A stretch of 64,000 nucleotides of DNA from Escherichia phage vB_Eco_Tribble, in sequence record OX016465, one strand, 5' to 3'. Under the pieces are notes generated by a model, which had not been told where the DNA came from, did no database searches, and saw only the letters and a list, made by a program, of their open reading frames with translations. The translations under genes were made by a program, and so were the position numbers. How positions within the stretch are numbered: position 1 is the stretch's first letter; each line of letters begins with the position of its first letter. Positions 23,081 to 24,660 of this stretch are shown in pieces.

Positions 23081-23109
23081 AAAATAAGCTATAACACCTG
23101 ACTTGTCAA
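23081..23109 (-). promoter_or_regulatory. Candidate sigma70-like promoter (TTGACA-N17-TATTTT) for the 22653..23036 gene
   Basis: Minus-strand reading gives TTGACA, 17-nt spacer, TATTTT about 45 nt upstream of the start codon. Confidence 0.35.
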
Positions 23110-23270
23110 CAGACTTTATAGCTTATTTGGCAGATTTTTTATAAGGCTACTGCCATCCTTCCATACCTTACCTTACCACACCTAACCATACCTAACCAAA
23201 CTACACCATACAATACCTTGTTAAAAGACCCTCTTAAAGACCTTTTAAAAAGGAGCCTCCGAAGAGGCTG
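23101..23270. repeat. Intergenic repeat copy A (G-free YYACC-periodic tract plus conserved AAAAGACCCTCTTAAAGACCTTTTAAAAAGG box plus hairpin)
   Basis: Shares GGCTACT(G/A)CCATCC…CCTAACCAAACT…TTAAAAGACCCT(C/G)TT(T)AAAGACCTTTTAAAAAGG with 24365-24545; plus strand 23153-23219 has no G. Confidence 0.6.
23241..23270 (-). terminator. Intrinsic terminator (minus strand) after the 23281..23721 gene
   Basis: Minus strand reads AGCCTC-TTCG-GAGGCT followed by CCTTTTTAAAAG. Confidence 0.45.
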
Positions 23271-23280
23271 CCTAGTCAAC

Positions 23281-23721
23281 TTAGAAAGGTTTTCTACGTT
23301 GCTTGTTAATGTTAGCTTTCATAGCAGCTAAATGGTTTTGCTGTTCAATTAGTCGTGAACGTTCTTGATGGCTAAGTGCCATAGTGTTCACATTCTCAAT
23401 TGCTTGAGTGGCTTGCTTTAAAGCTCGACCAATCTTACCAGACATTTTACGTTTTGCAATAGTTGCTTGATGCTTAGGTTCAACCACACGATAACCAACA
23501 CCCATTGAAGCAACCAGATAAATCTTCTCTTCTTTAAGAAGCTTCTCAATAAACTTCTCAAGTCGGTTTAGACGTGTAAGCGCATAAGCCTTCATTTCAT
23601 CTTCGTACTTAACAATGTCACCTTGATAAGTTGGCTTCACAATACCTAAGAAGGTGTCCATCTCAGAATGTGATACAGTGTCACCGTAACTAAACTTTGC
23701 TGCTAATGCTTTCGTATTCAT
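23281..23721 (-). CDS. Hypothetical protein
   Basis: 146 aa ORF flanked by the two repeat copies; basic coiled-coil-like C-terminus. Confidence 0.35.
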   Translation of the reverse strand: MNTKALAAKFSYGDTVSHSEMDTFLGIVKPTYQGDIVKYEDEMKAYALTRLNRLEKFIEKLLKEEKIYLVASMGVGYRVVEPKHQATIAKRKMSGKIGRALKQATQAIENVNTMALSHQERSRLIEQQNHLAAMKANINKQRRKPF

Positions 23722-23723
23722 AA

Positions 23724-24326
23724 TTAAACGTTACCTTCTGAAATAACTTCTACAGAAAAACGACCAAAGCGTGGACGCCAATCACCTACACCACAAAGGT
23801 TACCAGCATTTTCAAGAACCATCAGAAGTTCCTCTTTGGTGATTTGCTCTTCATCGAACATCAAACCGAACTCTACAGACCAGTCACGGAAGATTGGACG
23901 GTAGCTCATAACTCGTGCTGTACCAATCTTAACAGACTTAGCATAGATGAAGTCTGGATTCTTAGCAAGTTCTTGTGGGTTTGCTGGGCAGTTCTTGATA
24001 GTCATTGGGAAGACTACATCTGTCAGCATAATGGCTCGGTCAATTACCTTACCAAGTTTATTGAGTTTTGCACCAGACTTGATACAAGCCTCAATCATCT
24101 CACCGTTCATAACAAAACCTAGTTGGTCATCGTAGTAGCAAGAAGTTACCAGTTGACTTTCTGCTAAGAGCGCATAGTCTTCGTCAGTCTTTTTACGTTT
24201 ACTGGACAGAGACTTGTGATATTTTGTCAGAGGGTTTAATGGGTCTGACAGAGTATCTGCATGGCTCAGGAAAGGACGAGTACCAGTGATTTTGATATTT
24301 AACAGTTTCATAGCATTTAGCTCCAC
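23724..24326 (-). CDS. Hypothetical protein
   Basis: 200 aa ORF immediately downstream of repeat copies B/C. Confidence 0.35.
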
Positions 24327-24364
24327 ACTTTAGTTGATTGTTAAGTTGTTTGTAAAGAACCCTC

Positions 24365-24545
24365 AACAGAAGACTCTTTAGAAACTTGGTAGATTTTTAA
24401 CGTGGCTACTACCATCCACCCATACCTCACATCACCATACCATACCTGACCGGACCTAACCAAACTCCACAGCACCATACATCACATCACACAACCTTAT
24501 TAAAAGACCCTGTTTAAAGACCTTTTAAAAAGGTAAGTCTCATTT
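24365..24545. repeat. Intergenic repeat copy B (G-poor CA-rich tract plus conserved box)
   Basis: Homologous to 23101-23270 including GGCTACTACCATCC, CCTAACCAAACT and TTAAAAGACCCTGTTTAAAGACCTTTTAAAAAGG. Confidence 0.6.
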
Positions 24546-24660
24546 TAATGTAGCTGAGACTAACTACCCATACCAAACAGCACCGCACTATGCCTTACCC
24601 CACCTCACCGAGCCTCGCCCCACATCACTTAAAAAACCCTTTTCAAAGACTCTTAAGTGA
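24546..24660. repeat. Partial third repeat copy with inverted repeats
   Basis: G-poor tract CCCATACCAAACAGCACC…CCTTACCCCACCTCACC; 7-bp inverted repeat AGTCTCA/TGAGACT; 11-bp perfect inverted repeat ACATCACTTAA…TTAAGTGATGT. Confidence 0.5.

What the first reader, a model, noticed from the sequence alone, without database searches (positions are those of the whole stretch)
23101..24660. Family of ~170-bp intergenic repeats with a G-free, 5-nt-periodic YYACC tract flanking two unknown genes
Two full copies (23101-23270, 24365-24545) and a partial third (24546-24660) share GGCTACT(G/A)CCATCC, a run of pentamers (CCATACC TTACC TTACC ACACC TAACC ATACC TAACC) and a conserved box TTAAAAGACCCT(C/G)TT(T)AAAGACCTTTTAAAAAGG. 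In copy A the plus strand has no G for 67 nt (23153-23219), so the minus (coding-sense) strand carries GG doublets every 5 nt. This is not a terminator, a standard promoter or coding sequence. The copies bracket 23281..24326 (two genes of unknown function) and lie upstream of a secreted-protein gene. Candidate roles: protein-binding array, origin or packaging-related site, structured leader or non-coding RNA, or a G2N3-type quadruplex-prone element.
Basis: seen in the sequence. Interest (0 to 1): 0.7.

Follow-up and report, generated by a model that had tools for sequence, protein, structure and literature searches.

The report
VIPR guide-RNA arrays in a Felixounavirus
The odd 5-nt-periodic repeats are guide-RNA genes of a VIPR system, a CRISPR-like phage weapon first described in 2026 preprints; the two "unknown" genes between them encode its Cas7-like protein and accessory protein, so the finding is real and striking but already explained.

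Summary
On the gene-sense (minus) strand the repeats are three modules. Each has a 5' hairpin box, a (GGYNN)n tract of 11, 16 or 12 units, and a structured 3' tail. Across 45 unique tracts from related phages GGY is about 82-98% conserved, NN is hypervariable, and lengths differ only by multiples of 5.

The two bracketed genes recur next to such arrays in very distant phages and prophages. The 195-aa protein models as a Csm3/Cas7-like RAMP. Its family profile matches PDB 36pp, "SUSP1 Vipr protein", at E = 4.5e-81 (187/191 identical residues).

This is therefore a type II VIPR (Viral Interference Programmable Repeat) locus of the SUSP1 clade, described in bioRxiv 10.64898/2026.04.26.720920 and .720927. 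Vipr polymerises on the vrRNA with one protomer per GGY. The NN dinucleotides read DNA with one skipped base per unit.

I tested that rule. All three window guides have 81-92% matches in an E. coli satellite element carrying Felixounavirus-like tail genes. Shuffled guides and other skip rules stay at background.

Verdict: already known, with a correct and sharp observation. Two loose ends remain. The conserved 5' boxes are undescribed. A solo guide in vipr-less Felix O1 and Si3 matches the vipr gene itself.

The parts
24693..24720 (-). Sigma-70-like promoter P1 (TTGACA-16-TATACT) upstream of the first guide module
   Evidence: 11/12 consensus match. Conserved in all related loci. Activity was not tested.
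24665..24704 (-). Inverted repeat GGTGAGTA...TACTCACC overlapping the -10 box of P1. Role unknown; possibly an operator.
   Evidence: Read from the sequence. Conserved in the loci shown.
24623..24662 (-). 5' 'H box' hairpin (stem CATCACTTAAG/CTTAAGTGATG, loop ~GUCUUUGAAAAGGGUUU) preceding guide up1
   Evidence: 18 sequence variants keep the stem. Not described in the VIPR preprints.
24568..24622 (-). vrRNA 'up1' guide tract, 11 YNNGG units (NN = GG GA TC GA GG AA AT GC GC TT AT)
   Evidence: A 19/22 one-nt-skip match lies in the satellite large serine recombinase gene, in frame with the skip at the wobble position.
24534..24567 (-). vrRNA up1 3' tail, 'S' type: hairpin AGTCTCA/TGAGACT with loop GCUACAUUAAAA. 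GGUAG upstream can pair with CUAC (pseudoknot candidate).
   Evidence: The stem covaries with AATCGGA/TCCGATT in other phages. The preprint reports a pseudoknotted tail in this clade.
24500..24533 (-). 5' 'P box' (CCTTTTTAAAAGG + stem TTAAAAG/CTTTTAA, loop GUCUUUAAACAGGGU) preceding guide up2
Evidence: 14 variants.
24420..24499 (-). vrRNA 'up2' guide tract, 16 units
   Evidence: A 26/32 one-nt-skip match lies in the satellite recombinase gene (L148 13474-13520), in frame.
24388..24419 (-). vrRNA up2 3' tail, 'E' type (GGATGGTAG...CTACC hairpin)
   Evidence: GGTAG/CTACC here versus GGCAG/CTGCC in the downstream copy is a compensatory change.
23724..24311 (-). vipr gene: 195-aa Cas7/Csm3-like RAMP that polymerises on the vrRNA
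   Evidence: The family profile matches PDB 36pp_D 'SUSP1 Vipr protein' at E 4.5e-81. 187/191 residues are identical, and H17 K33 R39 E71 M72 K82 G87 K88 R138 C173 D177 W178 R179 are all present. AF2 pLDDT is 94. The first 42 Foldseek PDB hits are Csm/Cmr or type VII Cas effector-complex chains, or isolated Csm3.
23281..23721 (-). vap1 accessory gene (146 aa), probable winged-helix DNA-binding protein
   Evidence: 99.3% identical to the gene after vipr in phage SUSP1. The family motif VRGxGYRVVxPxEQ is shared with distant loci. The preprint calls type II vap proteins DNA-binding.
23254..23269 (-). Terminator-like hairpin after vap1. Its T-run is the start of the next P box.
23221..23253 (-). 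5' P box preceding guide 'down'
23161..23220 (-). vrRNA 'down' guide tract, 12 units. This is the C-free copy that gives the 67-nt G-free run on the + strand.
   Evidence: A 22/24 one-nt-skip match lies 30 nt upstream of the first gene of a satellite operon (L149 3362-3396).
23129..23160 (-). vrRNA 'down' 3' tail, 'E' type (AAGGATGGCAG...CTGCC)
23081..23109 (-). Sigma-70-like promoter P2 (TTGACA-17-TATTTT) for the next gene (22653..23036). Not part of the VIPR system proper.

Best explanation
The region 23129-24720 is a complete type II VIPR (Viral Interference Programmable Repeat) locus of the SUSP1 clade.

Three intergenic modules are transcribed on the minus strand into vrRNAs of about 100 nt. 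Each has a guide tract of 11, 16 or 12 YNNGG units followed by a structured 3' tail.

The gene between them, vipr (23724..24311), encodes a minimal Cas7-like RAMP. According to the published cryo-EM work it polymerises along the vrRNA, one protomer per repeat. It buries each GGY and presents the NN dinucleotide.

The NN dinucleotides then pair with double-stranded DNA that carries NNx NNx NNx, one skipped base per unit. This forms a protein-held R-loop triplex that blocks transcription.

vap1 (23281..23721) is an accessory DNA-binding protein that enhances the effect.

The guides of this phage are aimed at an integrated E. coli satellite element with Felixounavirus-like tape-measure and baseplate genes. 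The targets are its large serine recombinase gene and the start of one of its operons. The locus is therefore a weapon against a parasite or competitor of the phage.

Shown here: the anatomy, the identity of Vipr and Vap1, the conservation pattern, and the in-silico targets.

Taken from the preprints: RNA expression, RNP formation, the pairing rule as a physical mechanism, and repression.

Inferred: that this phage's guides are expressed and active.
For: - Tract statistics match the vrRNA definition. GGY is conserved and NN hypervariable, there are 9-18 units, and length changes are only in steps of 5.
- The A-B gene pair recurs with such arrays in distant phages and prophages of Rhodococcus and Xanthomonadaceae and in metagenomic phages.
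- Protein A is a RAMP by fold. The alignment profile of its family matches the PDB chain 'SUSP1 Vipr protein' at E 4.5e-81. The window protein is 97.9% identical to it, with every residue named as functionally important in the preprint's structural description conserved.
- vap1 is 99.3% identical to the SUSP1 gene.
- The preprints describe exactly this architecture, experimentally, in SUSP1.
- Independent test of the one-nt-skip rule:
  - The window guides score 19/22, 26/32 and 22/24 in satellite loci.
  - 0 of 200 unit-order shuffles reach these scores.
  - Skip rules 0 and 2 stay at 0.59-0.75 for all three guides. Skip 3 gives 0.62-0.68 for up1 and up2, and 0.83 only for the AT-rich 'down' guide.
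- 29 of 45 unique Felixounavirus guides reach at least 80% in 81 kb of satellite DNA, against 0 of 45 in 74 kb of flanking chromosome and 1 of 45 under each other skip rule.
- Both coding-region targets are in frame with the skipped base at the wobble position, as the preprint reports.
Against: - No expression or binding data exist for this particular phage.
- The matches are 81-92%, not perfect, and no perfect match exists in IMG/VR.
- Only six satellite variants were examined.
- The AT-rich 'down' guide has a raised background: 20/24 under the three-nt-skip rule, and 18/22 within the window itself for the 11-unit version of that guide.
- The source literature is two preprints from one laboratory, not yet peer reviewed.
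- The conserved 5' boxes are not accounted for by the published model.
Confidence: 0.93

Rival explanations
1. The repeats are only regulatory or recombination cassettes (promoter, stem-loop, terminator). Like the PeSL elements of T4-type phages, they would flank a movable two-gene insert and mediate its gain and loss by homologous recombination, with no RNA-guide function.
For: Felix O1, Si3 and others lack the two genes and keep a single module at the same site. Module number varies from 1 to 3 per site. Promoter-like and terminator-like sites lie next to the modules.
Against: This does not explain strict GGY conservation with randomised NN and a fixed 5-nt phase. It does not explain the association with a Cas7-like protein across phyla. 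It does not explain the highly non-random NNx matches to a satellite. Recombination between modules is probably a real side effect rather than the function.
Confidence: 0.03
2. The G-rich sense-strand tract acts through nucleic-acid structure. It would form two-tier G-quadruplexes or a stable R-loop downstream of an early promoter, serving as a replication origin or a transcription block.
For: GG doublets occur every 5 nt. The G-rich strand is the non-template strand downstream of a strong promoter. The locus sits among replication genes such as ligase and polymerase.
Against: ViennaRNA with the G-quadruplex option places no G in a quadruplex, and tract MFEs equal those of shuffles. Position 3 is restricted to pyrimidine and position 1 is never C, which is base-specific recognition rather than a G4 requirement. 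GC skew simply follows transcription direction, with its turning points near 19.5 kb and 30-31 kb rather than here. The cryo-EM work shows the Gs buried in protein pockets.
Confidence: 0.01
3. The boxes and tracts form a cis-acting leader that controls transcription elongation. Options are boxA-like antitermination (GGUCUUUUAACAA resembles the rrn boxA UGCUCUUUAACAA), avoidance of Rho on a long untranslated RNA, or a TRAP-like attenuation array.
For: The P box resembles boxA; this rests on my recollection of the consensus and was not tested. The untranslated stretches are 250-400 nt long. The window copy is C-free on the RNA strand.
Against: The boxA-like sequence differs at the conserved C3. 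C-depletion is not conserved in homologous tracts. TRAP sites are (G/U)AG, not GGY. None of these ideas explains the NN-encoded target matches. The 5' boxes could still have a role in biogenesis or elongation alongside the VIPR function.
Confidence: 0.02

Closest known systems
VIPR system of Escherichia phage SUSP1 (type II VIPR; bioRxiv 10.64898/2026.04.26.720920 and 10.64898/2026.04.26.720927; PDB 36pp)
   Same: The vipr gene is 97.9% identical and the vap1 gene 99.3% identical. The GGY/NN vrRNAs, tail types and 5' boxes are the same (L011). The genomic site, between the DNA ligase gene and the Felix O1 ORF87 homologue, is the same. The same class of satellite target is found under the one-nt-skip rule.
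   Different: The array layout is two guides upstream and one downstream, against one upstream and three downstream in SUSP1. The guide NN sequences differ.
Class 1 CRISPR-Cas backbone filaments (Csm3/Cmr4/Cas7 on crRNA)
   Same: RAMP fold with RRM core, G-rich loop ([12 protein letters not shown]) and thumb. A helical protein filament forms on a guide RNA. A variable guide is capped by a conserved structured handle.
   Different: The period is 5 nt with three bases sequestered, against 6 nt with one flipped base. The protein reads GGY sequence-specifically. Pairing to the target is non-contiguous. There is no Cas10, Cas5, Cas6 or Cas11, no CRISPR repeats and no adaptation genes. The system is phage-borne.
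PeSL (promoter-early stem-loop) cassettes of T4-type phages (Arbiol et al. 2010; recalled from memory)
   Same: Repeated intergenic promoter and stem-loop sequences flank optional genes, and there is presence/absence polymorphism between close relatives.
   Different: PeSLs have no periodic tract, no associated RAMP protein and no guide function.
Phage-borne mini-CRISPR arrays and RNA anti-CRISPRs (recalled from memory)
   Same: Mobile elements carry solo guide-like RNAs that exploit someone else's effector protein. This is a possible analogy for the orphan vrRNA in vipr-less Felix O1 and Si3.
   Different: The RNA family and effector are different. The orphan-guide idea is untested.

Membership tests
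VIPR (type II, SUSP1 clade) | Vipr protein: minimal RAMP with RRM core, G-loop and thumb | tested here: met
   The family profile matches PDB 36pp_D 'SUSP1 Vipr protein' at E 4.5e-81. 187/191 residues are identical. AF2 pLDDT is 94. The first 42 Foldseek hits are Csm/Cmr or type VII Cas effector-complex chains, or isolated Csm3.
VIPR (type II, SUSP1 clade) | Residues that read GGY and hold the DNA (H17, D177, R138, W178, R179, E71, M72, C173, K33, K82, R39, G87, K88) | tested here: met
   All are present at the same positions. The residue list comes from the preprint.
VIPR (type II, SUSP1 clade) | vrRNA of about 9-16 YNNGG repeats with conserved GGY and hypervariable NN | tested here: met
   The window has 11, 16 and 12 units. 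In 45 unique tracts the pentamer is G .82, G .97, Y 1.0, N, N; the phase never slips and lengths differ by multiples of 5.
VIPR (type II, SUSP1 clade) | Invariant structured 3' tail (pseudoknot in this clade) | tested here: inconclusive
   Tail hairpins are present and covary: AGTCTCA/TGAGACT with AATCGGA/TCCGATT, and GGCAG/CTGCC with GGTAG/CTACC. The pseudoknot pairing GGUAG/CUAC was seen by eye only and not tested formally.
VIPR (type II, SUSP1 clade) | Adjacent vap accessory gene encoding a DNA-binding protein | tested here: met
   The 146-aa gene immediately follows vipr and is 99.3% identical to that of SUSP1. Homologues follow vipr in distant loci. The winged-helix character was judged from the motif only; no structure was predicted.
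VIPR (type II, SUSP1 clade) | Guides match natural targets under the one-nt-skip (NNx) rule, in competing mobile elements | tested here: met
   Matches of 19/22, 26/32 and 22/24 in satellite loci. 0 of 200 shuffles reach these. 29/45 guides reach at least 80% in the satellite against 0/45 in the flanks, and 1/45 under each other skip rule.
VIPR (type II, SUSP1 clade) | vrRNAs are expressed, co-purify with Vipr and repress transcription | not testable with these tools
   Shown for SUSP1 in the preprints, not for this phage.
CRISPR-Cas type III | CRISPR repeat-spacer array, Cas10 and other Cas subunits, 6-nt crRNA periodicity | tested here: not met
   No Pfam or PADLOC hit for the two cassette proteins, and no Cas-related Pfam family in the five neighbouring proteins scanned, which are a ligase, an HTH regulator and three proteins with no hit. 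The arrays have a 5-nt internal period and no CRISPR-type repeats. Only the Cas7 fold is shared.
boxA/nut antitermination site | Match to the boxA consensus GCUCUUUAACAA, with NusB/E binding | tested here: inconclusive
   By eye the box reads GGUCUUUUAACAA, with a mismatch at the conserved C and an extra U. The consensus was recalled from memory. Binding is not testable here.
G-quadruplex-forming element | Predicted or measured G4 formation | tested here: not met
   The ViennaRNA G-quadruplex model places no G in a quadruplex in any of the three tracts. MFEs are close to those of shuffles.

The most novel reading that the evidence does not exclude
Two aspects of this locus are, as far as I could find, not covered by the VIPR preprints.

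(a) Vipr-less relatives (Felix O1, Si3) keep one orphan vrRNA at the same site. Its first 10 NN units match the vipr gene of this window perfectly and in frame (window 23814-23843). The orphan may be an anti-VIPR guide. It would load onto a co-infecting competitor's Vipr protein and turn it against the competitor's own vipr gene.

(b) Every guide tract is preceded by a conserved hairpin box (H or P type, shared loop ~GUCUUYUAAGAGGGU). This may be a signal for vrRNA biogenesis or for nucleating the filament.
Probability: 0.35. Interest if true: 0.6.

Novelty: already known. Interest (0 to 1): 0.4.

Why it matters
VIPR is reported as an RNA-guided DNA-recognition system that reads a gapped code and may predate CRISPR. 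Recognising it in an ordinary coliphage explains a hypervariable intergenic region and two widespread "hypothetical" phage genes (phrog_4652 and phrog_5926). It also shows that this phage targets a satellite element whose baseplate gene was found in 474 of 5,426 complete E. coli genomes.

For the scan itself, a tool-less reader picked out a genuine and very recently discovered system from raw sequence. The published targeting rule could also be reproduced independently with simple counting. The value added here is confirmation plus two leads, not a new system.

Tried and rejected
- Rfam at permissive E-value on 22000-26000: only two chance-level hits.
- Pfam, PHROGs and PADLOC on the flanked genes: no named family.
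- Felix O1 and UAB_Phi87 genome papers: the repeats are not discussed. By my coordinate estimate the genome ends lie far from this region, so a termini or packaging role was dropped.
- Literature search for pentanucleotide G-rich phage repeats: only an unrelated GGCAG tail-fibre observation.
- Ideas considered before the protein was identified and then dropped: TRAP-like attenuation array, CsrA or Hfq sponge, SD-like ribosome standby site, T7-type primase sites (GGTC makes up only about 15% of units), Chi or KOPS mimicry, DGR-type mutagenesis (no reverse transcriptase), and type III toxin-antitoxin RNA repeats.
- Exact full-length NNx patterns of guides 'down' and 'up1' in IMG/VR: no hit. Mismatch-tolerant scanning of satellite loci was needed instead.
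- The six satellites examined contain no GGYNN tracts and no vipr or vap1 homologue.
- Word-based homology search for Vap1 found only three proteins, two near-identical and one a 60%-identical fragment. Relatives were found by synteny instead.
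Full report
**What is in the sequence**

The window is a Felixounavirus. The region 22000-26000 is 92-99% identical to the best-matching listed Felix O1-like phage records, and the upstream intergenic region is 100% identical to Escherichia phage Andreotti.

All genes here lie on the minus strand.

- The + strand has no G for 67 nt at 23153-23219, the longest such run in 64 kb.
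- In-phase ACC at a 5-nt period occurs only at 23131-23244 and 24395-24503.

**Anatomy**

I compared this locus with 20 related loci from GenBank and IMG/VR. The intergenic DNA resolves into modules on the sense strand, each with three parts.
- A 5' hairpin box. The H type has the stem CATCACTTAAG/CTTAAGTGATG. The P type has the stem TTAAAAG/CTTTTAA. Both carry a similar loop, about GUCUUYUAAGAGGGU.
- A tract of 9-18 pentamers.
- A 3' structured tail. The S type is a hairpin AGTCTCA/TGAGACT that covaries with AATCGGA/TCCGATT. The E type is GGCAG/CTGCC, which covaries with GGTAG/CTACC.

The window has two modules upstream of the two bracketed genes and one downstream.

In 45 unique tracts the pentamer is G (0.82; never C), G (0.97), T/C (0.88/0.12), N, N. 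The phase never slips. Tract lengths differ only by multiples of 5.

The NN positions are essentially randomised between phages whose flanks are nearly identical. The absence of C in the window's downstream copy is not a conserved feature.

**The lead that solved it**

Many hits are not microsatellites. They are heterogeneous (GGYNN)10-40 arrays in unrelated viral contigs, often several in tandem with short conserved linkers, on the same strand as the downstream gene.

In several of these loci (L127, L128, L044) the neighbouring genes are homologues of the two "unknown" genes bracketed in the window. The 195-aa protein has more than 500 homologues, none with a Pfam hit or a functional name.

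I looked up three distant members: a Rhodococcus prophage, a Xanthomonadaceae prophage and a metagenomic phage. In each, the gene is followed by a 156-176-aa gene homologous to the window's 146-aa gene, and then by (GGYNN)n arrays. In the high-GC hosts the Y position is mostly C.

**Identity of the proteins**

An AlphaFold model of the 195-aa protein, built from a 35-sequence alignment, has a mean pLDDT of 94. Its first 42 Foldseek hits in the PDB are chains of type III Csm/Cmr or type VII Cas effector complexes, or isolated Csm3, with probability 1.0 and TM-scores of 0.4-0.55.

A profile search of PDB sequences then found chain 36pp_D, "SUSP1 Vipr protein", at E = 4.5e-81.

That name led to two 2026 preprints:
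[quoted passage not shown] These are the preprints' results, not mine.
- The components are a Vipr RAMP, an accessory vap gene and vrRNAs of 9-16 YNNGG repeats followed by a structured tail.
- In phage SUSP1 the vrRNAs are expressed and co-purify with Vipr.
- Vipr forms a helical filament with one protomer per repeat, and each GGY is buried.
- The NN dinucleotides pair with DNA while skipping one base per unit.
- Binding represses transcription, and vap1 enhances the effect.
- Natural targets of the SUSP1 clade are mostly a satellite phage.

**Membership of the window's locus**

- Vipr is 187/191 identical to the SUSP1 chain. It has every residue that the structural paper names as contacting GGY or DNA.
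- By tblastn against SUSP1 (locus L011), vipr is 97.9% identical and vap1 99.3% identical.
- The tails and boxes are the same as in SUSP1.
- The window differs only in layout, with two guides upstream and one downstream, and in the guide sequences.

**Independent test of the targeting rule**

The window's baseplate gene (9545..10342) has chromosomal homologues of about 92% identity in 474 of 5,426 complete E. coli genomes.

Four of the six loci I fetched carry an element of 11-14 kb; L148 and L149 are IS-disrupted copies of about 13.5 and 17 kb. The element has a tape-measure gene, a baseplate gene, small hypothetical genes and serine recombinases, inserted at different chromosomal sites.

I scanned six of these loci with NNx patterns from the three window guides:

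| Guide | Best match | Location |
|---|---|---|
| up1 | 19/22 | large serine recombinase gene |
| up2 | 26/32 | same gene family, another satellite variant |
| down | 22/24 | 30 nt upstream of the first gene of a satellite operon |

- None of 200 unit-order shuffles reached the observed scores.
- Skip rules 0 and 2 gave background values (0.59-0.75).
- Skip rule 3 gave background too, except 0.83 for the AT-rich 'down' guide.
- Both coding-region matches are in frame, with the skipped base at the wobble position.

Across all 45 unique Felixounavirus guides:

| Sequence scanned and rule | Guides with at least 80% match |
|---|---|
| 81 kb of satellite DNA, one-nt skip | 29 of 45 |
| 74 kb of flanking E. 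coli chromosome, one-nt skip | 0 of 45 |
| Satellite DNA, skip 0, 2 or 3 (each rule) | 1 of 45 |

This reproduces the preprint's central bioinformatic claim from scratch. It also shows that the window's guides look functional.

**Rivals**

- Structure-based ideas fail. No quadruplex is predicted, tract folding energies equal those of shuffles, and the base preferences are those of protein pockets.
- A role at the genome ends is unlikely. The mapped termini of a close relative lie roughly 27 kb away by my coordinate estimate.
- A purely regulatory or recombinational cassette explains the presence/absence polymorphism. Felix O1 has one module and no vipr or vap1. It does not explain the periodic constraint, the Cas7-like partner or the target matches.
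- The boxA-like look of the P box remains only a resemblance.

**Things not covered by the preprints, as far as text searches show**

1. The conserved 5' H and P boxes.
2. An orphan guide in Felix O1 and Si3, which both lack vipr.
   - They share one orphan module whose first 10 NN units match this window's vipr gene perfectly (23814-23843, minus strand). The match is in frame with the skip at the wobble position.
   - The alignment scores 20/22, because the semi-invariant last unit does not match.
   - The site keeps 17-20 of 20 matches in 18 vipr alleles.
   - My rough estimate of the chance of such a run anywhere in 64 kb is about 5e-7, taking p of about 0.27 per base and about 128,000 offsets.
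   - This suggests, but does not show, an anti-VIPR guide that exploits a competitor's Vipr protein.
3. The Rhodococcus prophage array is punctuated by tRNA-like elements with a GGTTCGATTCC T-arm and an acceptor-like stem. ARAGORN calls two of them aberrant tRNAs. The preprint mentions hammerhead-interspersed and staggered arrays, but no tRNA-like ones.

**Verdict**

The element is a member of a system published in 2026, from the same clade as the experimentally studied SUSP1 locus. It is therefore already known. Residual interest lies in the orphan anti-vipr guide and in the unexplained 5' boxes.

Noticed in passing
L005 (Felix O1) 3093-3150; L152 (Si3) 793-850; target in window 23814-23843 (-): Felix O1 and Si3 lack vipr and vap1 but keep one orphan vrRNA module. 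Its first 10 NN units match the window's vipr gene perfectly, in frame with the skip at the wobble position. The site is conserved (17-20 of 20) in 18 vipr alleles. It may be an anti-VIPR guide.
   Followed up: partly
window 24623-24662, 24500-24533, 23221-23253: Every guide tract is preceded by a conserved hairpin box. The two stem types (H and P) share a loop of about GUCUUYUAAGAGGGU. Some H boxes in other phages carry a 26-nt insertion in the loop. The boxes are not mentioned in the VIPR preprints. They may act in processing, nucleation or elongation.
   Followed up: partly
L139 7100-7650 (Rhodococcus globerulus prophage): Five (GGCNN)n tracts after a vipr-vap pair, four of them picked up by the automated tract scan. 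They are separated by tRNA-like elements with a T-arm GGCGGTTCGATTCCGCC and an acceptor-like stem. ARAGORN calls two of them aberrant tRNAs. This suggests vrRNA release by RNase P or RNase Z.
   Followed up: partly
L116 3232-4392; L071 2250-3250; L040 2301-3394; L030: Very long arrays in unrelated IMG/VR contigs, for example 18 tracts in 1.2 kb separated only by GGCAGTTNN. L071 is from a 388-kb jumbo-phage contig. They are presumably other VIPR types and were not classified.
   Followed up: no
window 9545-10342; loci L144-L149: The window's baseplate gene is about 92% identical in DNA to a gene of a chromosomal element found in 474 of 5,426 complete E. coli genomes. The element is about 11-17 kb including IS insertions. 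It has tape-measure and baseplate genes and serine recombinases, and it sits at several insertion sites. It is the apparent VIPR target.
   Followed up: yes
window 24665-24704: An 8-bp inverted repeat, GGTGAGTA...TACTCACC, overlaps the -10 box of promoter P1. It is conserved in relatives and could be an operator. An HTH regulator gene lies at 22147..22476.
   Followed up: no
window 24728-24874 (-): A 48-aa hydrophobic ORF (phrog_22006) lies between the ligase gene and P1. It is present in wV8-like loci and absent from the Felix O1 locus as annotated.
   Followed up: no
window 62370-63322 and 61728-61912: Other intergenic direct-repeat families: three copies of 101 nt, and repeated ~30-nt units ending in TGTGCAG after terminator-like sequences. 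They are unrelated to the VIPR modules.
   Followed up: no
window 16283-16358 and 18538-18776: GGTGCTCACA-type repeats inside two large ORFs that are probably tail-fibre genes. They encode His-rich repeated motifs and correspond to the repeats noted in Felix O1 genes 76 and 77.
   Followed up: no
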